Below, one piece after another: positions 11,794 through 30,605 of a stretch of 42,595 nucleotides of DNA. The position numbers were made by a program, and so were the translations under genes. The notes beneath the pieces were generated by a model. It was not told the DNA's origin and did not search any database. It was given only the letters and a program-made list of their open reading frames with translations. The stretch's first letter is position 1, and every line of letters starts with the position of its first letter. Origin of the DNA: a virus; the IMG/VR virus record IMGVR_UViG_3300045988_092738. One strand, written 5' to 3'.

Positions 11794-12879
11794 ATGGCAG
11801 AATATAAGTATGTGCGAAAAACCATTCGATACGGCGGGAAACGCTATGAAGTCACCGGCAAGACAGAGCGGGAAGCTTTGGAAAAGCTGGCGGAGCTCAA
11901 ATCAAAGCTAAAACGCGGCGAGCTGACGGTTGGAGAAAATATGACGGTAGATGCCTGGTATAGAGAATGGAAAGCACTGTACAAGGAACCAAGTGGAATT
12001 ACAGATAAAAGTCTTGGCATGTACGATGAAAAATACTATAAATATATTAAGCCACGAATTGGAAATCTAAAGCTGAAAGATGTACGGGATGTTCACTTGC
12101 AGCGGATTCTCAATGAGCAAGCCGGTATGTCATATTCTCATGTCAAAAAATTGTTGGGCGTCATCACACAGTTATTCAGCAGGGCGAGAAAGAGTCACAT
12201 GATTGCATACGATCCATCGGAGGATTTGTCTATTCCAGACGCGTCAAAAGGTCATCGGCGCTCAATTACGGATATAGAACGATCCGCAATACTAGCTGTC
12301 GCGAAAACACACCCCTCCGGTCTCTGGATTTTGACGATGCTCTATACTGGCATGCGCCCAGGGGAAACTGCGGCACTTCAGTGGAAAGATATAGATTTCA
12401 AAAAGAATGAAATTCATGTACATGCTGCCAAAGAGAGCGGGAGCAGGAATATAAAGGGCCCAAAGACTCTCGCCGGTGTACGGGATATTCCAATACATGC
12501 ATCACTTCGTCCACTCCTGCTCAAAAAAAAGGGCGATCCTTTCGCCCCGGTATTTCCGACGAGAGAAAATAATTTTCAAAATGAAAACAGTCTGCGCCGG
12601 TTGTGGAGTTCCTTTAAACGCGATTTAGACATCTATATGGGTGCGACTGTATATCGGAATCAAATCACAAAGTCAGTTGTAGCAGATGATCTCGTCCCAT
12701 ATTGTCTGCGCCACACATTCTGTACGGATCTACAAAAGAAAGGTATCCCGATTAATGTCGCTAAAGAGTTGATGGGGCACGCGGATATTTCAACTACAGC
12801 AAATATCTATACGCACAGAGACAATGAACTGCTGCACAATGAGATGGCAAAGCTGGATGGGACATTGAAAATCTCCTGA
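11794..12879 (+). CDS. int: Tyrosine recombinase / phage integrase
   Basis: 361 aa. Catalytic pattern TGMRPGE (R), LRHTFCT (HxxR), MGHADISTTANIYTH (H..Y). Lies adjacent to attP. Confidence 0.95.
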   Translation: MAEYKYVRKTIRYGGKRYEVTGKTEREALEKLAELKSKLKRGELTVGENMTVDAWYREWKALYKEPSGITDKSLGMYDEKYYKYIKPRIGNLKLKDVRDVHLQRILNEQAGMSYSHVKKLLGVITQLFSRARKSHMIAYDPSEDLSIPDASKGHRRSITDIERSAILAVAKTHPSGLWILTMLYTGMRPGETAALQWKDIDFKKNEIHVHAAKESGSRNIKGPKTLAGVRDIPIHASLRPLLLKKKGDPFAPVFPTRENNFQNENSLRRLWSSFKRDLDIYMGATVYRNQITKSVVADDLVPYCLRHTFCTDLQKKGIPINVAKELMGHADISTTANIYTHRDNELLHNEMAKLDGTLKIS

Positions 12880-12880
12880 T

Positions 12881-12905
12881 TTTTTCCACCACTTTTTCCA
12901 CCACC
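12881..12905. repeat. Arm-type repeat block 1 (2 x TTCCACCA, 12-nt period)
   Basis: tttttccaccactttttccaccacc, near-identical to 13117-13140. Confidence 0.7.
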
Positions 12906-12912
12906 AAACAAT

Positions 12913-12936
12913 CTAAAATGACCTAAAATGACCTAG
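12913..12936. repeat. 10-nt tandem repeat ctaaaatgac x2.4
   Basis: ctaaaatgac ctaaaatgac ctag, between int and the att core. Confidence 0.8.
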
Positions 12937-12951
12937 CTTTAAATACACAAT

Positions 12952-13008
12952 CATAAAAAGGAAAATCCCCTGGAACCATTGGAAAATCAATGATTTCAGG
13001 GGATTTTC
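12952..13008 (-). terminator. Intrinsic terminator following the tRNA fragment (minus strand)
   Basis: gaaaatcccctg / caggggattttc perfect 12-bp stem (15 bp with extension), followed on the minus strand by cuuuuua. Confidence 0.65.
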
Positions 13009-13011
13009 AGT

Positions 13012-13060
13012 TGGCACGCCGGAAGGGATTCGAACCCCCAACCCTCGGAACCGGAATCCG
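13012..13060 (-). other. attP core: 3' portion (anticodon arm to CCA) of a tRNA-Arg(CCG)-like gene
   Basis: Minus strand: cgga-TTCCGGT-tccg anticodon arm (CCG), GGGGG-TTCGAAT-CCCTT T-arm, CCGGCGT acceptor, G, CCA. No D-arm or 5' acceptor upstream. Confidence 0.7.
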
Positions 13061-13116
13061 TAAAGAAAATTCCCGCTTTCTACTGTAATTACAGCATTAT
13101 TTTTTGTTATTATATC

Positions 13117-13140
13117 TTTTTTCCACCACTTTTCCCACCA
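13117..13140. repeat. Arm-type repeat block 2
   Basis: ttttttccaccacttttcccacca, a direct repeat of 12881-12905 on the other side of the att core. Confidence 0.7.
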
Positions 13141-13142
13141 TG

Positions 13143-13760
13143 CTATTTCATGGCCTGTGCCAGTTTTTTGAGTAGATCCTCCCGCCAGATGTAGCTGGTG
13201 AGAAACTGCATCGTCGCATCGGAAAGCCCCGTTTTCTCCTTCACAGTCTCAATCGCCTCTGCATAGGTCATCGTCTTATCCTCCAGTAAATTCAAAAAGT
13301 TTTCCCACAGTGTGGGGTTGTCCACCATCGGTGCCGGGCACCGCTTTCCCGTCACATCGTAGTGCCGCAGTACATGCGCCCGGTCAATGCCGTAGGTCTG
13401 CATCAGCTGCCGCGCCAGTGCCGCCGCGTTGTACACCGTCTGGTCCATGAAGTAGTAATTGCCCTTACTGTCCTTCCTGGAACACAGTTCCATGCCAATG
13501 CTGTTGGCGTTGCGGCAGGTTGGATGCCGGTAGCTGCTGGCCCCGCAGTGCCAGGCTGTATCCGCATCCTTCACGCTCTGCCCATACCCGTTTTCATCCA
13601 CGAAGTAATGGGCTGATGCGCCCGCTGCATTGCAGCTGAAATAGTCCAGGTTATTCTGCACTGTGTCGCCATTGTTCGCCGTGTAGTGAATCACCAGGAA
13701 CTCGATTGGCTGCGTCCGTCCTTGGGCGAAATTCGCCTCATTCGCCTGTTTAAAGTTCAT
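13143..13760 (-). CDS. Endolysin, N-acetylmuramoyl-L-alanine amidase (Amidase_2/PGRP type)
   Basis: IEFLVIHYTAN...ASAHYFVD...AWHCG...NSIGMELC...VLRHYDVTGKRCP zinc-amidase pattern. Last gene before attP. Confidence 0.9.
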   Translation of the reverse strand: MNFKQANEANFAQGRTQPIEFLVIHYTANNGDTVQNNLDYFSCNAAGASAHYFVDENGYGQSVKDADTAWHCGASSYRHPTCRNANSIGMELCSRKDSKGNYYFMDQTVYNAAALARQLMQTYGIDRAHVLRHYDVTGKRCPAPMVDNPTLWENFLNLLEDKTMTYAEAIETVKEKTGLSDATMQFLTSYIWREDLLKKLAQAMK

Positions 13761-13801
13761 GCGTTATCTCCTTTCTGATTCTTTCCATTGCATTCTTTTT
13801 C

Positions 13802-13810
13802 TGGTATAAT
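13802..13810 (+). promoter_or_regulatory. Extended -10 promoter (TGgTATAAT) for the NUDIX-like ORF
   Basis: Same 9-mer as at 259-267. SD aaggag at 13817-13822. Confidence 0.45.
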
Positions 13811-13831
13811 GAATAGAAGGAGTGACTTAAC

Positions 13832-14314
13832 ATCAAAAGAATCAGCTCATTTTCTATCATCGCAATCCAAGATACCTTTTGCAAATTTCCCAACAGATAT
13901 CTCCTGAAATATGACAAGCGCTGGGATTGCAACCTATTCCCATACTGCCGCAGTACAGATACAGAAGAGGAAAATATTGAAAATATCCGGCAATATCTTT
14001 CCAAATCTTTGAAGGTTCCTGCCGCCAGCATCACACTGGAATACCGTACCAAAAACATTCATCCAAAATACTCTTATAGCGACAAGGTCATGAAAACCTA
14101 TGAGCACAAACTTTACAAAGCCTCTATTTTGGACTTTCCTTCATCGCTTGAGCAGGACCAGTTTCAAATTGATGGCATCCAATATTGTTGGATGTCAATT
14201 GAGCAAATGCGTAATAATCCCACAATTGAAGAGCGCAACGGGGATATCGTAAAATTTGTTGACAGCTATGCTGGATCATCAGCCACCTTGACAAAGGCGG
14301 GCGATTCGGTATAA
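13832..14314 (+). CDS. NUDIX-fold-like protein lacking a canonical Nudix box; putative ATC start (or pseudogene)
   Basis: Frame open from 13826. No ATG/GTG/TTG before TTG 14009, but ATC lies 9 nt after AAGGAG. SFSIIAI..YLLKYDKRWDCNLFPY..ENIENIRQYL..YCWMSIEQM pattern. Confidence 0.45.
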   Translation: MKRISSFSIIAIQDTFCKFPNRYLLKYDKRWDCNLFPYCRSTDTEEENIENIRQYLSKSLKVPAASITLEYRTKNIHPKYSYSDKVMKTYEHKLYKASILDFPSSLEQDQFQIDGIQYCWMSIEQMRNNPTIEERNGDIVKFVDSYAGSSATLTKAGDSV

Positions 14315-14315
14315 T
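14288..14315 (+). promoter_or_regulatory. Promoter TTGACA-16-TATAAT at the 3' end of the NUDIX-like ORF
   Basis: ttgaca 14288-14293, 16-nt spacer, tataat 14310-14315. Confidence 0.55.
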
Positions 14316-14377
14316 AGGAGATAGAAAGGGCGCTGCGACAAGCGGTTGAGCCCATAGTCAAGTAAAGATTTCTGTTA

Positions 14378-14417
14378 AGAAACCGTCACCGGCCAGGGTG
14401 GCGGTTTCTGCCTTTTA
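14378..14417 (+). terminator. Terminator/attenuator hairpin 1 (plus strand)
   Basis: agaaaccgtcacc / ggtggcggtttct 13-bp stem (one G-U), then gccuuuua. Confidence 0.5.
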
Positions 14418-14565
14418 TACGAATCGTCACTGTATATCCGAGGATATGTAGTGTGATTGTAACTGGCATATGCCTCACCCCCTTTCGGGAGTTGTGGCCC
14501 AACCGCCTGCCGTCTGTGCAGCGCCATCCTGATTCTACCGGATACGCCGCCTTTTGTCAATTTCT

Positions 14566-14592
14566 GCCGCCCGTCAGGGCGGCTTTTTATTT
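14566..14592 (+). terminator. Intrinsic terminator 2 (plus strand), abutting the holin stop
   Basis: gccgccc-gtca-gggcggc then tttttattt. The holin TAA (14589..14587) lies inside the T-run. Confidence 0.7.
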
Positions 14593-14844
14593 GCCCTTCG
14601 GCGTCTCGTAGGTGAGTGCCTGCTGGCTGTCTCCCACGCCCTGGGTGGTCGGATCATTCACCACGCCCAAGAGGGCCAGGATAGCAAAGATCGTGCCCAC
14701 AATGGCCGTCAACTGCTCGGACAGTCCAGTGTAGTCCCACTCCACGCCGAACAGCTTCAGAACCTGCGACGCCAACAGAAGCACTGCCGGCACCGCCGTC
14801 AGCCAGAAGGTCTTGTTCTTCAGTCTCACTTTCCAGTTAATCAT
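14587..14844 (-). CDS. Holin (phi LC3 / holin_4-like family)
   Basis: MINWKVRLKNKTFWLTAVPAVLLL...IVGTIFAILALLGVVNDPTTQGVGDS matches this holin family from memory. Two or three TM helices. Confidence 0.8.
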   Translation of the reverse strand: MINWKVRLKNKTFWLTAVPAVLLLASQVLKLFGVEWDYTGLSEQLTAIVGTIFAILALLGVVNDPTTQGVGDSQQALTYETPKGK

Positions 14845-14859
14845 CTATGTACCTCCACT

Positions 14860-15198
14860 TCAAAATCCAATCTGCGACAGAAGCGCACCGAATGCTGCAG
14901 CTACAACAGCCAGTATAAGCTTGTCCAAAATCATATCCCATCGGCGACCAGGCTTCGCGTCGCTCTCTTCCTGTTTTTTCAGCAGCTTGGCGATATTATC
15001 CCCCATATTGGACAGTTTTTCATCCAGCTGGGCGTCCCGCGCGATCTGCTCACGCTGCCAATCGTAGAAAGAACTGTGAAACCGCTTGGAATCAGTTTTC
15101 CAGTCCTCCAACGCCTTGATCCGTCCCTCCAACTCTGCGGCAGCGGCTTTCCCAATGCAATCCCGCTCCGGGTCCATCACACACTTTTCTGTTGGCAT
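14860..15198 (-). CDS. XhlA-like lysis-associated membrane protein
   Basis: Start MPTEKCVMDPERDC overlaps the upstream stop. Coiled-coil then C-terminal TM ILDKLILAVVAAAFGALL. Sits immediately before the holin, as in PBSX xhlA-xhlB-xlyA. Confidence 0.55.
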   Translation of the reverse strand: MPTEKCVMDPERDCIGKAAAAELEGRIKALEDWKTDSKRFHSSFYDWQREQIARDAQLDEKLSNMGDNIAKLLKKQEESDAKPGRRWDMILDKLILAVVAAAFGALLSQIGF

Positions 15199-16241
15199 CA
15201 CATCGCCTCCATCACTCTCTGGAGCACCACGCAAAATTCCTCCCGCGTGATGGGGGCTTTCGGGTCGAAATTCTCACCCTTTCCCTGCATGAAGCCTCTG
15301 GAAACGCAGTAGGCAACCGCGTCTTTTGCCCAGGTAGAAATCCTGTCTTTATCTGCAAACTCCATCTTTCTCACCTCAACATATTTCTCAATGTCAATTT
15401 CCTCCGGCTCCGGCAGCACCACTAAGCCAAATCCGCTTTGACTGTCCTTCCCCGCTTTGCCAATGTCCTGGCAGTGGTCTTTGAAGAACCGCACCATCGC
15501 CGCTCTTGAAAGGGCTTGTCCGGTTCTGTCCAAAAAGAAGTCGTCCACCAGACACGCCATCCCGCACAGCCACGGCGCAGCAAAGGAAGTGCCTGCCAGG
15601 ATATCTGCATGGTCAGAGGGATCCCCGGCCGCGATGTTGATGCCCGGATTGCCCGGCGCGGCGAAATCGACGAGCTCCGTCTGACTGGTATACCCTGCCG
15701 GATACACCCGTGGCCCGCCGATGACTTTGGACGAACGCAGTACCTCCGCCGCTCCGACTCCGATGGCGTCTTCCACCTGCAACAGCTTGCTGTAGCCCTC
15801 TGCCCCATCGTTGCCCGCAGCCCAGAACTCCTTCAGCCACGGCCGCGCCGCCAGAACTGCCGCGTGCTTCTCTCTGGCGGTTTTATCATTCTCCACGCGC
15901 GAGAAAAAGACATTTGAGATCCGCTTCCCATCGATGACGGGCACACAGTCTGAAAAGAAGTCCCAGTGCTTCTGCCCACCCGCCAGGCTGGTGTTGGTGG
16001 AGAAGGAGTAGAGGGTTGCCTCCGGGGCCACCTGGAAGAACACGGCGGCGGTCTGCACGGCGTGCTCAGAGGTCCCATCTCCCAGCACGGGGATAATCCT
16101 GCCCCCTGCGCTGTAAACCTCCGTGTTCACCTTCTCCCCGGTGCCAGCCATCACCCGACTGCCGAAATACCCCGCAGCATGGAACTTGTCCACGCCCGTC
16201 ACCCGCCGCAGCCATGCGTTGGAATCCAGTAAAACAATCAT
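15198..16241 (-). CDS. Subtilisin-like serine protease (S8) with C-terminal SLH domain
   Basis: D6 VLLDSN, H60 GTSEHAVQTA, N143 AAGNDG, S218 GTSFAAPW. SLH-like FADKDRISTWAKDAVAYCVSRGFMQGKGENFDPKAPITREEF at aa 294-343. Confidence 0.85.
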   Translation of the reverse strand: MIVLLDSNAWLRRVTGVDKFHAAGYFGSRVMAGTGEKVNTEVYSAGGRIIPVLGDGTSEHAVQTAAVFFQVAPEATLYSFSTNTSLAGGQKHWDFFSDCVPVIDGKRISNVFFSRVENDKTAREKHAAVLAARPWLKEFWAAGNDGAEGYSKLLQVEDAIGVGAAEVLRSSKVIGGPRVYPAGYTSQTELVDFAAPGNPGINIAAGDPSDHADILAGTSFAAPWLCGMACLVDDFFLDRTGQALSRAAMVRFFKDHCQDIGKAGKDSQSGFGLVVLPEPEEIDIEKYVEVRKMEFADKDRISTWAKDAVAYCVSRGFMQGKGENFDPKAPITREEFCVVLQRVMEAM

Positions 16242-16268: not shown

Positions 16269-17990
16269 TCACAGTTGGCTGAATTCCTCCGGGCTTGGAG
16301 AATACGCAACTTGAGCATAAGATGTACCATTGTAATACTCCCCTCCCAACAGCCAATACCCACTTCCGTAAGTGATATCATTAATAGCGTCTGTATTTGC
16401 TGTACCAGTCCATACATCTATCGTATTCCAGGTTCCGTTCAGATTGGTCGAATAGGAAATACGGGCTGATTTCGTGCCAGTGCAGTGCCCACCAACCATC
16501 CAGTAACCATCGGCATATGCAATACACTCGACCGAATCTGTGTTTTCTCCAGTCCAAATATCTTTTGTAGTCCAAGTACCATCCAGGCCGGCGGCATAAG
16601 CCATACTCAATCCGTAAGTGCTGCTTTCCTTGCAATATTCCCCGCAAACTGCCCACTGTCCATTGGCATATGTGATGCCATTGATGGCAGCATTGGCCGA
16701 ACCTCTATAGCTGCTTTCCCACACATTCACCTTTGTCCACGAGCCATTCGGGTCAGTCGCATAAGCAATTCTGGCATAGCATTTTTTCGATGTTGCGCTA
16801 TAAACGCCACCGGCCACAAAATATCCATTTGCATAAGCAATACAATTAAGGTTATTCGTATAGTCGCTGTTATCCCATAAATCTTCATTGGACCATGTTC
16901 CTGTAAGACTTGTTGAGTAAGCGACGCTGGCATATCCATCCATCCGTGAACCTGCTACGACCCAGTAACCATTTCCATAACAGATATCGCTTACCGAGGA
17001 GAAGCCGCCAGAAAAGGCAGTTGTGTAATTCCAGGTTCCATCTAAAGAAGTGGAATAATAGACACGGCATCCGCTGCTTCCAGTTTTAAGCGTTACTGCC
17101 CAATACCCATTTGCATAAACGATCCCACCTGGATTACAGTTGCTCCCAGAATACATTGTCTTGACTGTCCATGGTTTTTCTAAATCATTCGTATAGGCAA
17201 TTACAACTTTATAGGAGCCATCATTTTGATATCCCAAAGCCACCCAATATCCATTTGCATAAATAATCTTTTTAATATAAGTATTTCTCGTACCTGAAAA
17301 CAAACTTAATTTAGCCGGTGACAGGGAGGCGGTATAGAACAGTCTCGCCTTTCCCCCGACTCCGACATACGCCTTCTTCACCTTCCGGGCCTTGCCGCCT
17401 ACGCCGATGTATATATTTTTGATCTGCTGGGCCACACTGTTTGCCGTATCAAAGCAGCAGACCTGTCCCCCGGCCGTGAACTGGATGTGCGCATCGCACC
17501 ATTCCTTCGTGGGTTCCTTTCCGCTTCCAAACGCCGCCGTCAGGTCGATGAGCATTGCTCCGTCAAACCACATCGTTCCCGCCTGGTTCTGGTTGTTGTA
17601 GTCAAACCGGATCTGGTACTTTCCAGAGCCGAACGAGCTGCGGTTTGCCACCGTGCTGATTCTGCACCACTGGTTGGCCTTTGGCAGTACCTGTCCGGAC
17701 AGCATCACGGGTTCGGCAATGGGCCAGTAGATGTCCACCGAACCGGACACGGCGGTCTGGTATGCCTCAATGCACACATAATACTTGTGCGACGGCGTCA
17801 GCTGGATGGTCGCCGTGCTGGAGACCGTCGTCTCAAATTCGCCCGTGTTGCCAGTCAACTTCCGGGCATAGCGGCCATATTTGACATGGGCCGAATCCCG
17901 CGCGCCGCCGCTCCAGCCGGTTCCCTCGAAATTGCCGTCCGGGATCAGATTGGTGAGCAGCTTCGCGCCGATATATGCCTTTTTTGCCAT
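16269..17990 (-). CDS. Receptor-binding/tail fibre protein: CBM-like N-domain plus 7 propeller-like repeats
   Basis: NLIPDGNFEGTGW jelly-roll-like start. Duplicated Y(I/V)GVGGKAR motif. Seven ~45-aa repeats I.YANGYW(V).G....AYST.L.GTW. Confidence 0.65.
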   Translation of the reverse strand: MAKKAYIGAKLLTNLIPDGNFEGTGWSGGARDSAHVKYGRYARKLTGNTGEFETTVSSTATIQLTPSHKYYVCIEAYQTAVSGSVDIYWPIAEPVMLSGQVLPKANQWCRISTVANRSSFGSGKYQIRFDYNNQNQAGTMWFDGAMLIDLTAAFGSGKEPTKEWCDAHIQFTAGGQVCCFDTANSVAQQIKNIYIGVGGKARKVKKAYVGVGGKARLFYTASLSPAKLSLFSGTRNTYIKKIIYANGYWVALGYQNDGSYKVVIAYTNDLEKPWTVKTMYSGSNCNPGGIVYANGYWAVTLKTGSSGCRVYYSTSLDGTWNYTTAFSGGFSSVSDICYGNGYWVVAGSRMDGYASVAYSTSLTGTWSNEDLWDNSDYTNNLNCIAYANGYFVAGGVYSATSKKCYARIAYATDPNGSWTKVNVWESSYRGSANAAINGITYANGQWAVCGEYCKESSTYGLSMAYAAGLDGTWTTKDIWTGENTDSVECIAYADGYWMVGGHCTGTKSARISYSTNLNGTWNTIDVWTGTANTDAINDITYGSGYWLLGGEYYNGTSYAQVAYSPSPEEFSQL

Positions 17991-17999
17991 GCCGTCACC

Positions 18000-18746
18000 T
18001 CATTCGTAGACAAAGTACACCGTTCCCGTCGCAAGGCTGCTGGACCCGGCTGTGAGATCTGTCGTGCCGTAGGTATAGGACGGCGCTTTGCCGTTGATCT
18101 GCGTCTGAATGTTAGAAGTCACACCATCCAGATAGCCCAGTTCCGTGCTCGTCACGGCGCTCACCGCCACCTTGCCGCTGCCGTTGGACACCAGCGCCCG
18201 ATTCGCCGTCAGGTTGCTGCTCGTGATCGTGCTGGCCCCACCTGTCACAGTCGCCTGTTTGCCGTTGAGCGCAGTCTGGGTTGCCGTGCTGATGGGCTTA
18301 CTCAGATCCGAGGTGTTGTCCACATTTCCCAACCCAACCTGTGCCTTCGTCACGCCATGCGGGTTAGATTTGTTGTTGATATGGGCCGTCAGATTGGCCT
18401 GCACGCCGCTGGCCGCCCCTGCGGCATCTGCCCCCACATCTGCCGCCGTCAGCGAGATATTCGCGCTCAATGCCTTCCCGTTCACTGTCCGGCTGGTGGG
18501 CACTGCCCCAACTTGCGCCGCTGTTGGAGCCGCGACCGCAGTCGCATTGCCGCCAGAGTTAAAGCCGACAAACTGCCCGGAGGTGCCGGTTAACTTGTCC
18601 TGTTTTTCATTGGCCAGCGCAGCGGCCAACGATGGAAGATTGTCACTGTTGGCCCCTTCCGGCACCGTCACGCCGGTCTGTTGGATCGCTGAAATGGTAT
18701 CCTGCACATTTCCACTGATGCGTTCGATCTCACTTTGGATACTCAT
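18000..18746 (-). CDS. Tail fibre protein (248 aa)
   Basis: Start MSIQSEIERISGN after SD gagggggaagg. GLGNVDNTSDLSKPISTATQTALNGK fibre motif. Confidence 0.7.
   Translation of the reverse strand: MSIQSEIERISGNVQDTISAIQQTGVTVPEGANSDNLPSLAAALANEKQDKLTGTSGQFVGFNSGGNATAVAAPTAAQVGAVPTSRTVNGKALSANISLTAADVGADAAGAASGVQANLTAHINNKSNPHGVTKAQVGLGNVDNTSDLSKPISTATQTALNGKQATVTGGASTITSSNLTANRALVSNGSGKVAVSAVTSTELGYLDGVTSNIQTQINGKAPSYTYGTTDLTAGSSSLATGTVYFVYE
18093..18397. repeat. 305-bp direct repeat, copy A (within fibre gene 18000..18746)
   Basis: 17 mismatches in 305 nt versus 21028-21332 (counted by eye), same orientation. Confidence 0.9.
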
Positions 18747-18757
18747 ACCCTTCCCCC

Positions 18758-19927
18758 TCAAATCGCCGCCAGGGCCTCTTCAATATCGCCGGTCAGACTC
18801 ACACTGCCGCCGGAGGTATAGCCGGCCGGGACTGCATAGGAGGTGGTGGTCAGGCCGTCAATTGTCCCGCTTACTGCGCCATTGTTTTTCATAGCGCCCT
18901 GTACCGTCTCACCTTCCGCATTGACAATGGTCTTTCCGCTCAGTACATCTGCCGCCACCGCCGTCACACCAGACACATCCTGGTATGTATCCGGGATCGC
19001 CGCAACCGTAACCGAGGACAGCAGCTTTCCAGCCGTTGGGGAAATCGTTTGAGAGGATTTGGTGGGTGTTGCGCTCTTGGTTTCAAGCGACACGCTGACA
19101 GTTCCTTCTCCGTTGTGATAACCGGCCGGGATGGTGTACGAGGTTGTAGTGGCATCCAGCGCCTTGCTGGCTGCGCCGTTGTTCGGCATGGCGCCTTCCA
19201 CCAATTTCCCGGCGGCGTAGGCGGTCGCGCCGTCCAAAATCTGCGCCGCTGTCGCCGTGGCGTCGCTGGTATCCACATACTGTGCCGGGATGGCATTGAC
19301 GGTCACAGACGACAGAACTTTCCCCTCCGTTGGGCTTACAGTCTGCTGCGCCGTGGTTGGCGTGACAGTTTTCGTCTCCGGAGAAATGGACACCGTACCG
19401 GTGCCGGCATGATAGCCTTTTGGAATGGTATAGGAGGGTTCCTTTCCCGTCAAAGTTTTGGAAACCGCGCCGTTATTTGCCATTGTACCAGTTGTCACCG
19501 TGCCGTCTGCGGTCACAATGATCTTGCCTGTCAGCACATCGCCTGCAGCTGCCGTTACGCTGGACACATCCTGATACGCCTCCGGGATGGCTCCCACCGT
19601 CACATCCGACAGGCCATAGTAGCCGGAATCCGGCGTGATGGCCTGCTGTTTTTTGGTCGGCGTCACCGTTTTGCTCTGCAGGGTGTAGTTGCCGCCGCCG
19701 GCAACGCCGGACACCGTACCGGCCCCGTTATGATATCCCTTTGGGATGGTATAGGTATCTCCTTCCTGCACCTGGGCGCTGACTGCTCCGCAGTTTACGA
19801 TCCCGTCCACCGCAGTCGCCAGTGCGTCCAGGTTGGAGGTGGACTCCGCCAGACCAAAATCAATCAGCTTGTTTCGGATTGTGTTGCGGTCCGTCTGGAT
19901 TCTCGCAATTTCAGTTGCTACACTCAT
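18758..19927 (-). CDS. Tail fibre protein with four ~100-aa internal repeats
   Basis: YTIPKGYHNGAGTVS / YTIPKGYHAGTGTVS / YTIPAGYHNGEGTVS / YAVPAGYTSGGSVS, each followed by TVTPT..Q.ISP..G.LSSVTV.AIP. Confidence 0.7.
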   Translation of the reverse strand: MSVATEIARIQTDRNTIRNKLIDFGLAESTSNLDALATAVDGIVNCGAVSAQVQEGDTYTIPKGYHNGAGTVSGVAGGGNYTLQSKTVTPTKKQQAITPDSGYYGLSDVTVGAIPEAYQDVSSVTAAAGDVLTGKIIVTADGTVTTGTMANNGAVSKTLTGKEPSYTIPKGYHAGTGTVSISPETKTVTPTTAQQTVSPTEGKVLSSVTVNAIPAQYVDTSDATATAAQILDGATAYAAGKLVEGAMPNNGAASKALDATTTSYTIPAGYHNGEGTVSVSLETKSATPTKSSQTISPTAGKLLSSVTVAAIPDTYQDVSGVTAVAADVLSGKTIVNAEGETVQGAMKNNGAVSGTIDGLTTTSYAVPAGYTSGGSVSLTGDIEEALAAI

Positions 19928-19941
19928 TCGTTTTGCCCCTT

Positions 19942-20565
19942 TCAGATGGTCTCCAGCAGGATTTCAATATTGCCAACTGTGGTATACACCGCCGCCGATG
20001 TGATTGGAAGGGTGTTGTCCTGCTCCGCCTCTTCCGCGGTATCCACCTCCAGCGTGTTGCCGCCAGTTACTTTCAGGCCGTGGCCGATCCGGTAGTTTGT
20101 GCCACCCCCGCCGCCGGTCTCATGGACCTCGTTGATGGCCGCCACCAGGGAGGATTTGTCGGCGGTCGTCAAGTCCTCCAGATTTCCGATCTCAGCCAGC
20201 ACCTTTTGATAGGCATCCGGCGTCGGTGGTGACGGCTCTGCACCGGTTGTCACGCCGGGGCAAATCACGCCCAGACTCGCCCAGATTGTTGGGAGCACAA
20301 TGGCCCCTTCGCGCATCCCATATACGCCTGCCATTAAAGAGAGCTTTGGACATTCCATCACTTCCCACGGGATCTGACATTGGTTTGTCTCGTCCAGGGG
20401 CAGAGAAATCGTGACATTTCCTGCAGAGAAAACGGCGATTCGGGACAGCCCCTCCCAGTCCTCGTTAAACTGGAAGGACACCAGGTAGACATTGACAGAA
20501 CCGCTTGTTACCAGTTCTTTTTCCATGACCTCCAGCCTGTTCTTATTTGCTTTCAGCAGAAACAT
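19942..20565 (-). CDS. Tail fibre-associated protein (207 aa)
   Basis: LTTADKSSLVAAINEVH motif common in Firmicute phage fibres, and its position in the fibre cluster. Confidence 0.5.
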   Translation of the reverse strand: MFLLKANKNRLEVMEKELVTSGSVNVYLVSFQFNEDWEGLSRIAVFSAGNVTISLPLDETNQCQIPWEVMECPKLSLMAGVYGMREGAIVLPTIWASLGVICPGVTTGAEPSPPTPDAYQKVLAEIGNLEDLTTADKSSLVAAINEVHETGGGGGTNYRIGHGLKVTGGNTLEVDTAEEAEQDNTLPITSAAVYTTVGNIEILLETI

Positions 20566-20631
20566 CCTGCATCACCCCGCAATTCCTTTGGCCTGTTGCT
20601 CAGTAAAACAGTATTCACAGCTTTCTTACCT

Positions 20632-21675
20632 CTAAGTTTTAATCCATTTTGCAACAAGCGTCCCCGGCTCTATGGAGACTTTATAATCTGAGTAGCTGTT
20701 AGCCGCCACAACCGCCCGGATTCGTTGTACTGAAGTGCTCAGCTCACTTTGGAGTAACACCAGCTTATCTGTCTGACCGTCTACTTCCCCGGCATACGCC
20801 ATGCCAATCAGGGTTGTACTCTGAGTGCTGTTTAAATATGACGCTGCGATCCCTGTCAGGCCTAACTCGTTTAGTCCAGAATAGGCGCCATCACCAAAAA
20901 AATTGTCTGTACTTGTTGCGTATGGGGAAATCGTGATTGTCAAAGTCGAATTTGCATATGCTTCGTATATATCTCCATTTTTATAAATATCAAGTTGCGC
21001 TGTCTGTTGTACCCGTACGCCAAGATTGTTGATTTGCGTCTGAATGTTAGAAGTCACACCATCCAGATATCCCAGCTCCGTGCTCGTCACGGCGCTCACC
21101 GCCACCTTGCCGCTGCCGTTGGACACCAGCGCCCGGTTGGCCGTCAGGTTGCTGCCCGTAATGGTGCTGGCCCCACCCGTCACAGTCGCCTGTTTGCCGT
21201 TGAGCGCAGTCTGGGTTGCCGTGCTAATGGGCTTACTCAGGTCCGAGGTGTTGTCCACATTCCCCAACCCAACCTGTACCTTCGTCACGCCGTGCGGATT
21301 GGATTTGTCGTTGATATGGGCCGTCAGATTGGATTGGACGCTGTCTGCGCTTCCCTCAGGATCGTAGCCCAGAGCCGGAATCTGTGTTACTGGCACTTTC
21401 CCATTTCCGTCAAGGCTTGCAGCTCCATTTGCCACCCCCAGCGGTAACTGAGAGGCAGGGACTTTCCCATCTGCGCCCAACTCCGGCATGTTTTCCATCG
21501 CATTGCCGAGTGCATTGATTCCATTCTCCGCCGCATTCACTTGCTGCATGAGGTAGTTATATCCATGCTGTTCCGTTAGCCCTACATCTGTACCATTTGG
21601 GCCAACGGTCTGCCCATATACCCAATCTTCCGGTAGATTTGCCGGAAGTGGCGTCTTAATTGGGTTTTCAGCCAT
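20632..21675 (-). CDS. Tail fibre protein (347 aa)
   Basis: Start MAENPIKTPLPANLPEDW after AAGGAG. GADGKVPASQLP and GLGNVDNTSDLSKPISTATQ motifs. Shares a ~100-aa module with 18000..18746. Confidence 0.7.
   Translation of the reverse strand: MAENPIKTPLPANLPEDWVYGQTVGPNGTDVGLTEQHGYNYLMQQVNAAENGINALGNAMENMPELGADGKVPASQLPLGVANGAASLDGNGKVPVTQIPALGYDPEGSADSVQSNLTAHINDKSNPHGVTKVQVGLGNVDNTSDLSKPISTATQTALNGKQATVTGGASTITGSNLTANRALVSNGSGKVAVSAVTSTELGYLDGVTSNIQTQINNLGVRVQQTAQLDIYKNGDIYEAYANSTLTITISPYATSTDNFFGDGAYSGLNELGLTGIAASYLNSTQSTTLIGMAYAGEVDGQTDKLVLLQSELSTSVQRIRAVVAANSYSDYKVSIEPGTLVAKWIKT
21028..21332. repeat. 305-bp direct repeat, copy B (within fibre gene 20632..21675)
   Basis: About 94% identical to 18093-18397. 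Confidence 0.9.
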
Positions 21676-22573
21676 TGCTTGCCACTCCTTCCGCAACTGG
21701 AATTGTATGTTTTATGATAGTACTTGCATCTACTGGGACATAGACCGTGGATGTGGTCAGCACTGTGCCGGTTGAATCCAAAAGCTCCACTTTTGTGATC
21801 TCCTGCACTTGCTCCATCGGGACGGAATAAGTGATTGTCAGTGTGGAGCTGTCGACTTCCTTCTCGAGCATGTCGATCAGGATTGTCCCATTCAGCCTTG
21901 CTTTTACAATATCCGCGGCGACGAAGTTTGCCGTTCCGGCCAACAACGCTTCCTGGATAGATGGTGTGTCTGGCATTTTTATCACTCCTTGCGGCTGTTC
22001 TGAGGCAAATGGCAGAACGCCCATCCCCCATGCTCCAAGCCGGTAATTATATCGCAGCTCCGAATATTCAATCTGTTCTGCAAGCAATAGGCCGGCTCTT
22101 AAATATGGAGTATTGACAAAAACAATGTGTGCCGGCTTGATTCTCCCGATCGTATAAGCCACCTCTGTGGCATATTGCTGGTTTTCTGCGCTGCTTTCGA
22201 TGTACAGGGTGTAATGTGGATAGTCCACTGTGATCGTCCATTCCCCCGGCCCAATCAGCTCGTCCAGTTTCTGACGCAGAAACTGAAGCGTAAACGGCGG
22301 CCGTGTGGACGCCCGATTCAGGACTCTTGCGCGCCGAAACTCTAACGATTCCGTCGCCGGATTCGGTGTAATCTGAAAGATCTGTTCCCACTGGCTTACT
22401 GCACCGGCATCCATTGTCTGAAAAAAGAAGTTGTTTGCAACTGCGGCAATTTCTGTTGCGAGTGCTTCCATCTGCACCTGTTCTGCTTGACAAATCTGTT
22501 GATAGTCCAAAATCCGTCGGTACCACGGCGGAAGCAACGCCAGCAGATCCGCGTCCAACTCGATTTTATTCAT
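21668..22573 (-). CDS. Baseplate/tail protein, XkdU/YmfQ (DUF2313)-like with C-terminal extension
   Basis: LLALLPPWYRRILDYQQICQAEQ...FLRQKLDELIG pattern, positioned after the baseplate J gene. Confidence 0.6.
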   Translation of the reverse strand: MNKIELDADLLALLPPWYRRILDYQQICQAEQVQMEALATEIAAVANNFFFQTMDAGAVSQWEQIFQITPNPATESLEFRRARVLNRASTRPPFTLQFLRQKLDELIGPGEWTITVDYPHYTLYIESSAENQQYATEVAYTIGRIKPAHIVFVNTPYLRAGLLLAEQIEYSELRYNYRLGAWGMGVLPFASEQPQGVIKMPDTPSIQEALLAGTANFVAADIVKARLNGTILIDMLEKEVDSSTLTITYSVPMEQVQEITKVELLDSTGTVLTTSTVYVPVDASTIIKHTIPVAEGVASNG

Positions 22574-23678
22574 TCAGTGTCACCGTCCCCAATACAGGCA
22601 CTTGCTGTGTTTCTCCTGTCTGTGTCAGGATCAGATCGTTTGTCCCGCTGTTCAGCGTGACATTGGTGGCGTTTACAACGCCCACTGTGCCGACAATTGC
22701 AGCCGTCACTCTTGCAAGATACACATTTGCTGCATATTCTACGGTTGTACTGCCGACCATGTTTCCCCAACTCTGCCGGACTGTCAGCAGATAGCTCTCG
22801 ATCGCCGCCTCAATCAGTGGCTTCACCTGTTCCAAGCTGTAACCACTGGATAACACAATGGTAGCCTCAACATTAACTGTCACGGTCTCTGGCGCCGTTA
22901 TCGTAACCTTTGCGCCGATCGGTGCCAGGCCGAGTCCCTGTCCCTGTGTAACCGGGTCAATCGCCGTCTGAACATTTTTGACCAATTCCTCTGAGGCCGG
23001 CAAATAATCCGCCCCCAGGATGGCGCATTTGACCGTTCCACCGCCATCCCAGGTTGGGTATACCTGTACGGCGCCAACGCCGTCAATGGCCAGAATATCG
23101 GTTCGGTAAGACGCAATATTTCCGCCAAACGGTCGATCGTTCAATGCCGTAATCAGACGGGCACGCAATTCTTCGTCTGTTTCGGTGTCGTCACCAGGCA
23201 CCAGAATATCTGTGATTTGCGCAGATGTCAGGCCGGGAATGTTGGTGATTGGGAGGATCGGCCCAGAATAATCGTTTCCAATGCTTCCCGGCGTTTCTGC
23301 AGTCAGCTGGTACTGATTTGCCCCTTCTGCCGGTGCAGTTACAACAAAATTAATACTGTCTGCGCCGTTAATAGTCGAGAAGCGTGCTCCAGCCGGCACT
23401 GCCGTATTAAAAACGCCGAGCCGTACCGCAGCGGATGCCGGATACCTTGTAAGTCCGGCCAGCGTTGCCAGATAGTCAAGTGACTGCCCAACCGCTGTCT
23501 GCACAAATGCCTGTTTTTGCACTTGATTCAGGCTGAGGTAAAAGCCGGCAAGTACAAAAGCAGCAGGTCCAAGCGCCGTCGGAATGGGGCTGCCATCCCG
23601 CTTATCATAGGTATCCGGAATTTGGGCCAGCATCTTCTGCAATAGCGCCTGATAGGTATCTTCTGAAAAATCAATCAA
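22566..23678 (-). CDS. Baseplate J-like protein (XkdT-like)
   Basis: 370 aa. N-terminal DTYDKRDGSPI...ETDEELRAR motif typical of the baseplate J family. Confidence 0.8.
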   Translation of the reverse strand: MIDFSEDTYQALLQKMLAQIPDTYDKRDGSPIPTALGPAAFVLAGFYLSLNQVQKQAFVQTAVGQSLDYLATLAGLTRYPASAAVRLGVFNTAVPAGARFSTINGADSINFVVTAPAEGANQYQLTAETPGSIGNDYSGPILPITNIPGLTSAQITDILVPGDDTETDEELRARLITALNDRPFGGNIASYRTDILAIDGVGAVQVYPTWDGGGTVKCAILGADYLPASEELVKNVQTAIDPVTQGQGLGLAPIGAKVTITAPETVTVNVEATIVLSSGYSLEQVKPLIEAAIESYLLTVRQSWGNMVGSTTVEYAANVYLARVTAAIVGTVGVVNATNVTLNSGTNDLILTQTGETQQVPVLGTVTLNE

Positions 23679-30448: not shown

Positions 30449-30452
30449 AGAA

Positions 30453-30605
30453 TCACTCCTTTCCAAAAAATGCCTTGACCTTTCTGTCGGCCTCGGCCAG
30501 TGTGTAATATGGTTTTGTCAGGACTGCCGCCAGGAAGTCCCGCTGATACCCGGAAAACCGGTTGCTGTTAATAATCGCCGTTCGGGTGTATCGTTTCGTT
30601 TCCAT
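30453..30605 (-). CDS. Small protein (50 aa) upstream of sheath gene
   Basis: ATG 30605 with GGAGG 6 nt upstream. METKRYTRTAIINSNRFSGYQRDFLAAVLTKPYYTLAEADRKVKAFFGKE. Overlaps the upstream gene by 38 nt. Confidence 0.4.
   Translation of the reverse strand: METKRYTRTAIINSNRFSGYQRDFLAAVLTKPYYTLAEADRKVKAFFGKE

What the first reader, a model, noticed from the sequence alone, without database searches (positions are those of the whole stretch)
15198..16241. Subtilase with an SLH cell-wall anchor, translationally coupled to the lysis cassette (candidate S-layer-breaching lysis factor)
The 347-aa ORF has the complete S8 signature in order: D6 (VLLDSN), H60 (GTSEHAVQTA), oxyanion N143 (AAGNDG) and S218 (GTSFAAPW). 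One SLH-like module follows (aa ~294-343). No signal peptide is visible. Its stop overlaps the XhlA-like start (TGATG at 15196-15200), so it is the first gene of the protease-XhlA-holin-(insert)-amidase block. That is the slot held by the exported lytic protein XepA in PBSX-type elements. The endolysin itself has no recognisable wall-binding domain. Inference: the protease is released at lysis, docks on the secondary cell-wall polymer via SLH and cleaves the S-layer. That would be a dedicated outer-barrier lysis function, analogous in logic to spanins or mycobacteriophage LysB. Alternatively it is a virion-associated entry depolymerase. I do not recall this role being demonstrated for a phage S8 protease; that is from memory, not a search.
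Basis: partly seen in the sequence, partly recalled or inferred. Interest (0 to 1): 0.7.

Follow-up and report, generated by a model that had tools for sequence, protein, structure and literature searches.

The report
Subtilisin-fold phage lysin with SLH anchor
A gut phage carries, next to its holin and amidase, a leaderless subtilisin-like enzyme (with Glu instead of Asp in the catalytic triad) tied to a single cell-wall anchor, and its relatives are built and placed like endolysins, so it probably represents an undescribed type of phage cell-wall lytic enzyme.

Summary
The 347-aa ORF (15198-16241, minus strand) is real. It has a confident subtilisin fold and one C-terminal SLH module. Its stop overlaps the start of an XhlA-like gene, which is followed by a holin and an Amidase_2 with no recognisable wall-binding domain. 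D6 is not conserved and lies in an N-terminal helix. The canonical Asp position holds Glu36, which is Glu in 132 of 139 family representatives. The triad is therefore Glu36-His60-Ser219 with oxyanion Asn144.

The family is large (541 clusters at 50% identity), almost entirely metagenomic and unannotated. In 137 of 145 representatives the domain sits at the extreme N-terminus, with no signal peptide or propeptide. Its partners are wall-binding modules (SLH, Cu_amine_oxidN1, SH3_3, LysM, SPOR, PG_binding_1) or peptidoglycan hydrolase domains (Amidase_2/3, CHAP, NlpC/P60, M15, lysozyme). In other phages it sits in the endolysin slot beside holins.

In 8 lineages an in-frame ATG with a Shine-Dalgarno-like motif lies at the linker-SLH boundary. 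This suggests a second product, a free SLH module, as in two-polypeptide endolysins.

Best reading: an endolysin-class wall-lytic peptidase of a new catalytic type. Cleavage of the S-layer remains possible but untested.

The parts
15198..16241 (-). Gene for the 347-aa subtilisin-fold + SLH protein (full-length product)
   Evidence: ORF; 115 homologues; AF2 pLDDT 93; subtilisin fold
15387..16241 (-). Subtilisin-like catalytic domain, aa 1-285; starts at residue 1 with no signal peptide or I9 propeptide
16134..16136 (-). Glu36 codon (GAG): occupies the canonical Asp32 position of subtilisin; proposed catalytic acid
   Evidence: Glu in 132/139 representatives, Asp in 6; profile alignment to BPN'; follows strand 31-34; codon checked
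16062..16064 (-). His60 codon: catalytic histidine
   Evidence: 138/139 conserved; aligned to His64 of BPN' and to LicP
15810..15812 (-). Asn144 codon: oxyanion-hole asparagine (AAGNDG)
   Evidence: 144/145 conserved; aligned to Asn155
15585..15587 (-). Ser219 codon: catalytic serine (GTSFAAP)
   Evidence: 146/146 conserved; aligned to Ser221
16224..16226 (-).
   Evidence: 12/114 conserved; lies in N-terminal helix 6-15
15231..15359 (-). Single SLH module, aa 295-337 (W304, G316/G320, T332-R333-E334-E335)
   Evidence: Pfam SLH E=2e-11; matches Sap SLH in PDB; motif residues nearly invariant
15363..15377 (-). Candidate internal translation start: GAGGTGA (15371-15377), 5-nt spacer, ATG = Met293 (15363-15365). 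It would give a 55-aa free SLH polypeptide sharing the stop codon
   Evidence: 11 of 12 boundary ATGs carry an SD-like motif, against 13% of other internal ATGs. Met is enriched before the SLH in representatives (p~5e-7)
14860..15198 (-). XhlA-like protein, 112 aa, C-terminal TM helix. Its ATG overlaps the stop of the protease gene (TGATG); RBS GGAGG at 15206-15210
   Evidence: phrog_937 E=1e-11; TM 89-107
14587..14844 (-). Holin (Phage_holin_1 / holin_phiLC3), 85 aa, 2 TM
13761..14586 (.). Insert between holin and amidase. It holds an antisense open frame (13817-14314, +) with no canonical start before TTG 14009, promoter-like sites on both strands, and a 27-aa ORF (14386-14469, -). It is absent from related cassettes
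   Evidence: contiguous holin-amidase in L013/L014/L016/L032
13143..13760 (-). Amidase_2 endolysin, 205 aa, no recognised wall-binding domain. Its conserved ~40-aa C-terminal tail is shared with S8-like+Amidase_3 fusion lysins
16269..17990 (-). Upstream gene: 573-aa distal tail fibre / receptor-binding-like protein with seven ~50-aa 'YANGYW' repeats
   Evidence: translation; position after tail-fibre genes

Best explanation
The gene encodes an endolysin-class cell-wall lytic enzyme of a catalytic type not yet described. Its catalytic domain has a subtilisin fold, a Glu36-His60-Ser219 triad and oxyanion Asn144, and no leader or propeptide. A single C-terminal SLH wall-binding module follows.

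Shown here: the fold, residue conservation, gene context and family architecture.

Inferred mechanism:
1. The protein is made late from the tail-fibre/lysis operon and accumulates folded in the cytoplasm.
2. It reaches the wall when the XhlA-like/holin pair permeabilises the membrane.
3. It docks through SLH on the pyruvylated secondary wall polymer. Docking probably needs an SLH trimer, and an internal start at Met293 may supply extra free SLH modules for that trimer.
4. It hydrolyses peptide bonds in the wall, working alongside the Amidase_2 that has no binding domain.

I take peptidoglycan stem or cross-bridge peptides as the more likely substrate, and wall-anchored proteins such as the S-layer as the less likely one.
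For: Catalytic machinery:
- Fold and triad conservation.

Family architecture:
- 137 of 145 representatives carry the domain at the extreme N-terminus. The C-terminal extensions are mostly the length of one SLH. This is the usual layout of Gram-positive endolysins: catalytic domain first, binding domain last.
- Partners in the 145 representatives: SLH 59, Cu_amine_oxidN1 17, Amidase_2 15, NAGPA 14, SH3_3 8, Amidase_3 4, CHAP 4, NlpC/P60 4, M15 types about 5, Phage_lysozyme 2, Glucosaminidase 1, LysM 1, SPOR 2, PG_binding_1 1.

Gene context:
- XhlA, holin, [S8-like+Amidase_3] (L004/L005).
- Tail genes, [S8+PG_binding_1], small TM protein, holin (L006).
- [S8-like+M15], small TM protein, holin (L007).
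- A 4-TM PF06541 protein directly upstream of S8-SLH or S8-NAGPA-SH3-SLH in L003, L011, L012, L026 and L031, with no canonical hydrolase seen within 6-10 kb.
- A parallel CHAP+single-SLH protein next to S8-SLH in L024.
- The cassette S8-SLH, holin, Amidase_2 is carried on two unrelated phage backbones (window; L013/L032).

Other endolysin-like traits:
- A conserved SD+ATG at the linker-SLH boundary in 8 lineages. This trait is frequent in endolysin genes (PMC9430671).
- A single C-terminal SLH works as an endolysin binding domain in LysBT1 (PMC12285257).
Against: - There are no biochemical data for any family member.
- No subtilisin-fold enzyme was found described as a peptidoglycan hydrolase. 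Peptidoglycan peptides contain D-residues and iso-peptide bonds, which ordinary subtilases do not cut.
- In the window and its close relatives a separate amidase is present, so the protease could be accessory rather than a primary lysin.
- Several distant homologues (L001, L010, L018, L019) do not sit in an obvious lysis cassette.
- 'No other hydrolase nearby' covers only 6-10 kb on each side.
- Whether a Glu-for-Asp triad is active in this fold is assumed, not shown.
- The host is unknown.
Confidence: 0.6

Rival explanations
1. S-layer-breaching accessory lysis factor. After the holin and amidase act, the SLH-docked protease degrades the SLH-anchored S-layer or other wall proteins. That would remove a last proteinaceous barrier, by analogy with spanins or LysB.
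For: - A protease fold is naturally suited to protein substrates.
- SLH is the commonest partner (59 of 145). Cu_amine_oxidN1 is the next most frequent partner domain (17 of 145).
- In the window lineage the enzyme always accompanies a conventional amidase instead of replacing it.
- It holds the accessory 'xepA' position.
- The LysBT1 paper notes that S-layers sieve out enzymes.
Against: - Family members also use LysM, SPOR, PG_binding_1 and SH3_3, and are fused to peptidoglycan hydrolase domains. This fits a peptidoglycan-directed module.
- Several phages show S8-SLH with a membrane protein and no other lysin nearby.
- S-layer proteins vary greatly, whereas the catalytic domain is conserved.
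- A broad-specificity protease accumulating without a leader or propeptide in the cytoplasm would endanger virion proteins.
- No host S-layer is documented.
Confidence: 0.2
2. Virion-associated entry enzyme: a tail-borne depolymerase that opens the S-layer or wall at infection.
For: The gene lies immediately after the tail-fibre genes, 27 nt downstream of the 573-aa fibre ORF. Some phages carry wall hydrolases on their tails.
Against: - It has no tail-attachment or fibre-like domain. The catalytic domain begins at residue 1.
- It is translationally coupled to the XhlA-like gene.
- In other phages it is paired with membrane proteins or holins, sometimes on the strand opposite the structural genes, or fused to endolysin domains.
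- The long family members are S8-NAGPA-SH3-SLH proteins, not tail proteins.
Confidence: 0.07
3. Processing protease that matures or activates another lysis protein (amidase, XhlA-like protein or holin) rather than attacking the wall.
For: - The nearest solved sequence relative is a lanthipeptide leader protease with narrow specificity (4zoq).
- Fusion to amidases could reflect an enzyme-substrate pairing.
- The amidase and the fusion proteins share a conserved C-terminal tail.
Against: A processing role does not explain the wall-binding partners (SLH, LysM, SPOR, SH3_3, PG_binding_1). It also does not explain the many members that occur with no amidase nearby.
Confidence: 0.06
4. Catalytically dead subtilisin-like scaffold that serves only as a wall-binding or oligomerisation module.
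For: The canonical Asp is missing. The Pfam S8 match is partial and barely above threshold. Inactive subtilase-like domains exist in phage tail proteins (PMC13118943).
Against: Ser219 is invariant (146/146). His60 (138/139), Asn144 (144/145) and Glu36 (132/139, otherwise Asp) are conserved across sequences that are only 25-40% identical. That pattern indicates selection on catalysis.
Confidence: 0.05

Closest known systems
Modular Gram-positive phage endolysins, in particular LysBT1 of Brevibacillus thermoruber prophage PBT1 (Amidase_2 + single C-terminal SLH; PMC12285257)
   Same: Leaderless, encoded beside a holin, N-terminal catalytic domain plus C-terminal binding module. The binding module is a single SLH with the W / G / TRxE motifs.
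   Different: The catalytic domain has a subtilisin fold and is not a known peptidoglycan hydrolase class. Activity is untested. The window phage also carries a separate amidase with no binding domain.
Subtilases, MEROPS family S8 (subtilisin BPN', intracellular subtilisins, lanthipeptide protease LicP 4zoq)
   Same: Fold, order of catalytic residues, His, Ser, oxyanion Asn and the GTS-x-x-x-P motif.
   Different: Glu replaces the catalytic Asp across the family. There is no signal peptide, I9 propeptide or ISP-type N-terminal extension. The protein begins about 4 residues before the conserved N-terminal helix. It is combined with wall-binding and peptidoglycan hydrolase domains and encoded in phage lysis cassettes.
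XepA of the Bacillus subtilis PBSX lytic cassette (PMC6834076)
   Same: Gene position: after the tail genes and immediately before xhlA, holin and amidase.
   Different: No sequence or fold similarity. XepA is a pentameric dumbbell with C2-like domains, thought to act on the membrane. The protein here is a monomer-type hydrolase fold with a wall anchor.
Two-polypeptide endolysins encoded by one gene through an in-frame internal start (Lys170, CTP1L, LysIME-EF1, LysP7951; PMC9430671, PMC4777826, PMC7098653)
   Same: SD-like motif plus ATG exactly at the linker/binding-domain boundary, conserved across lineages. Oligomerisation of the binding domain is expected.
   Different: The second product is predicted only. 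The binding domain is SLH, for which a 1 full-length : 2 free-module trimer would be a new arrangement.
Accessory outer-barrier lysis proteins (spanins; mycobacteriophage LysB)
   Same: Possible logic only: an additional enzyme in the lysis cassette beside the holin and the peptidoglycan hydrolase.
   Different: No homology. No evidence that an outer barrier is the target. In other phages the domain appears to be the main or only lysin.
Secreted SLH-anchored bacterial subtilases
   Same: An S8 domain combined with SLH.
   Different: From general knowledge, those have a signal peptide, a propeptide, a canonical Asp and usually three tandem SLH repeats. This family has none of these.

Membership tests
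Peptidase S8 (subtilases) | Subtilisin alpha/beta fold | tested here: met
   AF2 pLDDT 93, pTM 0.84. Foldseek against PDB: subtilisins and LicP, E~3e-13, TM(target) 0.6-0.7. Profile against BPN', E=3e-24.
Peptidase S8 (subtilases) | Catalytic triad Asp-His-Ser in that order | tested here: not met
His60 and Ser219 are present and conserved. The Asp position holds Glu36 (Glu 132/139, Asp 6/139).
Peptidase S8 (subtilases) | Oxyanion-hole Asn | tested here: met
   Asn144 conserved in 144/145 and aligned to Asn155.
Peptidase S8 (subtilases) | Score above the curated Pfam/NCBIfam threshold | tested here: inconclusive
   Pfam PF00082: 23.7 bits against 21.8, covering only aa 139-239. No NCBIfam model reaches its cutoff.
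Peptidase S8 (subtilases) | Proteolytic activity | not testable with these tools
   Needs an enzyme assay.
SLH domain proteins | SLH profile match with the conserved W, G and TRAE-type motif | tested here: met
   PF00395 44.1 bits against 20.8. W304, G316/G320 and T332-R333-E334-E335 present. W304, G320 and R333 are nearly invariant.
SLH domain proteins | Three SLH units forming the three-prong spindle that binds the wall polymer | tested here: not met
   There is one SLH per chain. C-terminal extensions across the family are mostly 54-100 aa. Homo- or hetero-trimerisation is inferred from SlpA and LysBT1 and from the candidate internal start. It could not be modelled here.
Phage endolysins (functional class) | Encoded in the lysis cassette beside a holin | tested here: met
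   Window; L004-L007, L013, L014, L016, L032.
Phage endolysins (functional class) | Leaderless, modular: N-terminal catalytic domain plus C-terminal wall-binding domain | tested here: met
   No N-terminal hydrophobic segment. The domain is N-terminal in 137/145. Partner repertoire.
Phage endolysins (functional class) | Catalytic domain of a recognised peptidoglycan hydrolase class | tested here: not met
   Only S8 and SLH are detected. No match in 50,697 deposited phage genomes. Endolysin surveys do not list S8.
Phage endolysins (functional class) | Degrades peptidoglycan / lyses cells | not testable with these tools
   Needs zymograms and muropeptide analysis.
Two-polypeptide (internal-start) endolysins | In-frame start codon with an SD at the linker/binding-domain boundary | tested here: met
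   Window: GAGGTGA, 5 nt, ATG (Met293). 11 of 12 boundary ATGs have an SD-like motif against 21 of 157 other internal ATGs, in 8 lineages.
Two-polypeptide (internal-start) endolysins | Two polypeptides are actually produced and assemble | not testable with these tools
   Needs expression and mass spectrometry.
XepA-like lytic cassette proteins | Homology to XepA/YomS (pentameric C2-like beta-sandwich) | tested here: not met
   The fold is subtilisin. Only the gene position is shared.

The most novel reading that the evidence does not exclude
The enzyme is a dedicated third-step lysis factor for monoderm bacteria with S-layers. It is a holin-released protease docked through an SLH trimer, with free SLH modules supplied by an internal start. 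It strips SLH-anchored surface proteins so that virions can escape. That would be a functional counterpart of spanins or LysB, and no such class is known. A less radical version is that it is the first subtilisin-fold, Glu-His-Ser peptidoglycan endopeptidase and is widespread in gut phages. I rate that version at about 0.4.
Probability: 0.2. Interest if true: 0.8.

Novelty: new variant of a known kind. Interest (0 to 1): 0.6.

Why it matters
If the domain is lytic, it adds a new catalytic class to the short list of endolysin enzyme types. That class would have a subtilisin fold and a Ser-His-Glu triad. The family is already large: 541 clusters at 50% identity. It occurs in uncultivated gut phages that appear to infect Firmicutes (Clostridia), and current annotation calls its members 'hypothetical' or 'S-layer homology domain'. 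Recognising it would improve lysis-module annotation in gut viromes and supply new enzybiotic scaffolds for SLH-bearing Clostridia. It would also give a test case for how a single SLH module is made functional, possibly through a 55-aa secondary translation product. If instead it cleaves S-layer proteins, it would reveal an unrecognised step in lysis of S-layer-bearing bacteria.

Tried and rejected
- Rfam scan of the window: no matches. tRNA scan: none, so no tRNA att site.
- D6 as catalytic Asp: rejected.
- tblastn of the protein against 50,697 deposited phage genomes: no match. For the distant fusions P0111 and P0108, only their non-S8 domains or generic phage subtilases matched.
- NCBIfam: nothing above cutoff. 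PADLOC: only a weak generic 'subtilase' hit, so there is no support for a defence role.
- Host identification did not succeed. The GTDB genome scan gave only two MAG loci: Clostridiales bacterium HRGM_Genome_2644 and Clostridium sp. CAG:452. Portal homologues and their clusters carry no organism names. The 86-kb contig of P0043 is another phage, not a host contig. The only hint is a 49%-identical amidase in Agathobaculum phages.
- Alignment A2 was too diverse for the search for related loci. A6 was used instead.
- The insert ORF (13817-14314, +) and the 27-aa ORF have no Pfam, PHROG, PADLOC or NCBIfam hits.
- The amidase C-terminal tail has no PDB sequence match.
- Literature searches found nothing for subtilase or S8 as an endolysin domain, or for a Ser-His-Glu subtilisin. 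The library is incomplete, so this is absence in that library only.
- The pooled Pfam scan of neighbour ORFs shows only 25 of 42 families. My crude ORF picking probably chose the wrong strand for the CHAP-SLH gene in L023 and L028. 'No other hydrolase' is therefore a soft result.
- Triad geometry could not be measured, because model coordinates are not exposed.
Full report
**1. What is at the coordinates**

The window is a 42,595-bp contig of an uncultivated gut phage. A portal protein identical over 97% of its length lies on a 42,595-bp contig, and one source names it 'MAG TPA: Portal [Caudoviricetes sp.]'. PHROG matches show a temperate myovirus, all on the minus strand:
- terminase 39675-40892
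- portal 37941-39674
- head protease 34878-36077
- major head protein 33297-34331
- tail sheath 29111-30466
- tape measure 26204-28021
- baseplate 22566-23678
- tail fibres 16269-21696

The lysis region follows:
- ORF 15198-16241 (347 aa), the subject of this finding
- an XhlA-like protein, 14860-15198 (phrog_937, E=1e-11; one C-terminal TM helix)
- a Phage_holin_1 / holin_phiLC3 holin, 14587-14844 (2 TM)
- an 826-bp insert
- an Amidase_2, 13143-13760 (205 aa)
- on the plus strand, an integrase, 11794-12879

The stop of the 347-aa ORF and the ATG of the XhlA-like gene overlap as TGATG at 15196-15200. GGAGG lies 7 nt upstream of that ATG.

**2. Domain check**

SLH is clear. Pfam gives E=2e-11 for aa 295-337, and the sequence matches the SLH units of B. 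anthracis Sap in the PDB. The motif residues W304, G316/G320 and T332-R333-E334-E335 are present. W304, G320 and R333 are nearly invariant among homologues.

The Pfam S8 match is only partial (aa 139-239, 23.7 bits against a cutoff of 21.8). Other evidence makes the subtilase relationship robust:
- A profile of 43 homologues hits subtilisin BPN' at E=3e-24.
- AlphaFold2 gives pLDDT 93 and pTM 0.84.
- Foldseek returns subtilisins and the lanthipeptide protease LicP at E~3e-13.

**3. The catalytic acid is Glu36, not Asp6**

In the model it opens the N-terminal helix 6-15.

The profile alignment to BPN' places the family motif 'HaaGYtGkrvkaasgE' on 'HSQGYTGSNVKVAVID'. The family Glu therefore lies on Asp32, His60 on His64, Asn144 on Asn155 and Ser219 on Ser221. 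Glu36 follows strand 31-34, as Asp32 follows strand 1 in subtilisin.

Conservation across 146 sequences that are mostly 25-45% identical:

| Residue | Conserved |
|---|---|
| Glu36 | Glu 132/139, Asp 6/139 |
| His60 | 138/139 |
| Asn144 | 144/145 |
| Ser219 | 146/146 |

The few Asp-containing members (P0111, P0113: 'VIDTG') show the ancestral state. This pattern argues for a catalytically active Ser-His-Glu enzyme and against a dead scaffold. I found no description of a Glu variant of the subtilisin triad in the paper library. Ser-His-Glu triads are known in other hydrolase folds; that is general knowledge, not something tested here.

**4. The family**

The word-indexed search found 115 relatives. 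None has a functional name; the three family members that carry any name are called 'hypothetical protein'. The exhaustive profile search found 541 clusters at 50% identity with E<=1e-30.

A predicted structure of an 87%-identical protein exists in BFVD as 'S-layer homology domain [Siphoviridae sp. ct0Wl9]'. None of 50,697 deposited phage genomes has a tblastn match. GTDB species representatives gave two MAG loci only: Clostridiales bacterium HRGM_Genome_2644 and Clostridium sp. CAG:452.

In 137 of 145 representatives the subtilisin-like domain starts within the first 15 residues. There is thus no signal peptide and no I9 propeptide. The C-terminal extensions cluster at 54-100 aa, the length of one SLH.

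Pfam partners among the 145 representatives:

| Partner domain | Members |
|---|---|
| SLH | 59 |
| Cu_amine_oxidN1 | 17 |
| Amidase_2 | 15 |
| NAGPA | 14 |
| SH3_3 | 8 |
| Amidase_3 | 4 |
| CHAP | 4 |
| NlpC/P60 | 4 |
| M15 variants | about 5 |
| Phage_lysozyme | 2 |
| SPOR | 2 |
| Glucosaminidase | 1 |
| LysM | 1 |
| PG_binding_1 | 1 |

This is the partner repertoire of modular cell-wall hydrolases. The subtilisin-like domain sits where the enzymatically active domain sits in Gram-positive endolysins.

**5. Gene context elsewhere**

- L004/L005: XhlA, r1t-type holin, [S8-like+Amidase_3]. The fusion is in the endolysin slot.
- L006: tail genes, [S8+PG_binding_1], a 104-aa protein with an N-terminal TM helix, r1t holin.
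- L007: [S8-like+VanY/M15_4], a 106-aa TM protein, Phage_holin_1.
- L013/L032/L014/L016 (87-88% identical protein, in 67-96-kb contigs; L013 and L032 also encode PolIII-alpha and DnaB): S8-SLH, holin, Amidase_2, contiguous and without XhlA. The trio therefore moves as a cassette between unrelated backbones.
- L003, L011, L012: a 4-TM PF06541/phrog_20274 protein lies immediately upstream on the same strand. Precomputed Pfam shows no canonical hydrolase within 6-10 kb. L011 also has a 2-TM, 115-aa ORF just downstream.
- L026/L031: the same 4-TM protein precedes a 685-aa S8-like-NAGPA-SH3_3-SLH protein.
- L024/L025: a CHAP+single-SLH protein lies about 1 kb from S8-SLH. This is a conventional catalytic domain on the same anchor.
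- L001, L010, L018, L019: not in an obvious lysis context.

A pooled Pfam scan of 74 neighbour ORFs from seven IMG/VR loci listed no canonical hydrolase among the 25 families shown. That is a soft negative. Only 25 of 42 families are shown, coverage is 8 kb on each side, and my ORF picking probably chose the wrong strand in L023 and L028.

**6. A probable internal start at the SLH boundary**

In the window an in-frame ATG (Met293, 15363-15365) sits two codons before the SLH 'FADKD' motif. GAGGTGA lies upstream with a 5-nt spacer.

Of 16 S8-SLH genes for which I hold DNA, 12 have an in-frame ATG within 10 codons of the SLH start. Eleven of those 12 carry an SD-like motif. Only 21 of 157 (13%) other internal in-frame ATGs in the same genes do. 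The eleven fall into 8 lineages that share as little as about 40% identity, for example GGGAGG in L019, GAGGAGGT in L020 and GAGGGGGGTGA in L023.

At the protein level, 24 of 49 representatives have a Met within 8 residues before the SLH motif, against 17.6% expected (binomial p~5e-7).

In-frame internal starts that yield a free binding domain are frequent in endolysin genes, and the products often assemble into heteromers (PMC9430671; CTP1L PMC4777826; LysIME-EF1 PMC7098653). SLH units work as trimers. Three tandem repeats form the spindle in Sap and SpaA, and the single SLH of SlpA forms a homotrimer (PMC12285257). I therefore infer that a 55-aa free SLH product could complete the trimer around one catalytic chain. 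This is untested.

**7. Mechanism**

Shown:
- the fold and a conserved Ser-His-Glu plus Asn machinery
- leaderless, N-terminal placement of the domain
- a single SLH with intact ligand motifs
- translational coupling into the holin operon
- endolysin-type architecture and context across the family

Inferred:
- The protein accumulates in the cytoplasm and is released by the XhlA-like/holin system.
- It docks by SLH on the secondary wall polymer.
- It cuts peptide bonds in the wall, in concert with the amidase, which lacks a recognisable binding domain.

Fusions of the domain to Amidase_2 or Amidase_3 in single polypeptides (P0099, P0105/6) are a Rosetta-stone argument that the two window enzymes act together.

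The substrate is not resolved. I favour peptidoglycan peptides for three reasons. Some partners bind peptidoglycan itself. All known second catalytic domains in endolysins attack peptidoglycan. A leaderless, propeptide-free protease accumulating next to virion proteins should have a narrow, extracellular substrate.

It fits the protease fold, the dominance of SLH, and the constant company of a conventional amidase in the window lineage.

**8. Comparison with known systems and novelty**

The closest functional analogue is LysBT1, reported in 2025. It has Amidase_2 plus a single SLH, and its authors state that no SLH-containing endolysin had been reported before.

The positional analogy to xepA holds, but there is no homology.

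Neither a 2018 survey of endolysins in uncultured phage genomes nor a 2025 review of metagenomic endolysin discovery mentions S8, subtilisin or SLH. Searches pairing endolysin with subtilase, Peptidase_S8 or subtilisin-like returned nothing relevant.

I classify this as a new variant of a known kind: a modular phage lysin with an unprecedented catalytic fold and triad. It is strictly not a canonical S8 member by the Asp-His-Ser criterion.

**9. Limits**

- There is no biochemistry for any family member.
- The host is unidentified. The only hint is a 49%-identical amidase in Agathobaculum phages.
- Triad geometry was not measured.
- Local context windows are limited to 10 kb on each side.
- The paper library is incomplete.

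Noticed in passing
window 13761-14586: An 826-bp insert splits holin from amidase. It has an antisense open frame (13817-14314, +; about 165 codons) with no canonical start before TTG 14009. Promoter-like sites lie at + 13782-13810, + 14288-14315 and - 14560-14532 (TTGACA-17-TAGAAT). There is a 27-aa ORF MPVTITLHILGYTVTIRIKGRNRHPGR (14386-14469, -) and hairpins at 14378-14409 and 14566-14583. No hit in Pfam, PHROGs, PADLOC or NCBIfam. The insert is absent from related cassettes, where holin and amidase are contiguous. It may be a moron or a toxin-antitoxin-like unit.
   Followed up: partly
window 13143-13265 (amidase aa ~165-205): The Amidase_2 ends in a ~40-aa tail (AIETVKEKTGLSDATMQFLTSYIWREDLLKKLAQAMK). 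The tail is also found at the C-terminus of the S8-like+Amidase_3 fusion lysins P0105 and P0106 (QIVQEKAGLEDKTMDYLAAYTWGKDLIEKLAKAMM). It has no Pfam or PDB match. This looks like an unannotated C-terminal module shared by lysins of different catalytic classes.
   Followed up: partly
L003 5432-5917; L011 3910-4344; L012 9499-9993; L026/L031 7544-7987: A 144-164-aa, 3-5-TM (mostly 4) protein (PF06541 'ABC_trans_CmpB', phrog_20274 'unknown function') sits immediately upstream of the S8-like lysin gene in several unrelated phages. It is a candidate holin family that is not annotated as such.
   Followed up: partly
L026 7992-10049; L027 7983-11867; L009 5983-8751: Large lysin-like proteins combine the S8-like domain (sometimes twice) with a NAGPA phosphodiester-glycosidase domain, SH3_3 and SLH. 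NAGPA might cut the phosphodiester link of wall polysaccharides. I am not aware of it as an established endolysin domain.
   Followed up: partly
L024 9017-9829 (also L025 10030-10779): A 250-270-aa CHAP + single-SLH protein lies about 1 kb from the S8-SLH gene. These phages therefore carry two different catalytic domains on the same single-SLH anchor.
   Followed up: partly
window 16269-17990: The 573-aa protein just upstream has seven ~50-aa repeats with the motif (I/V)xYANGYW(V/A)xxG. These are probably beta-propeller-like and form the likely receptor-binding tip of the tail fibre. No Pfam family matches.
   Followed up: no
window 18758-19927: The 389-aa tail-fibre-region protein has internal repeats ('T(I/V)PKGYH(N/A)G(A/T/E)GTVS', three stretches matching phrog_13589).
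   Followed up: no
clusters of P0090 and P0073 (L001, L003): S8-SLH homologues at 40-44% identity recur on contigs of 219-274 kb in several samples (for example 244148, 245515, 246267, 272097 and 273769 bp). This suggests complete jumbo-phage genomes that carry this lysin type.
   Followed up: no
L017 9036-9940: In an 84%-identical relative, the interval between S8-SLH and a near-identical amidase holds a 198-aa minus-strand ORF with no family match, in place of XhlA and holin. The interval between protease and amidase seems to be a hot spot for gene exchange.
   Followed up: no
window 11794-13142: The integrase lies mid-window next to the end of the lysis cassette, and no tRNA gene is nearby. 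The contig is probably a circularly permuted or complete temperate phage genome, with attP between 12880 and 13142.
   Followed up: partly
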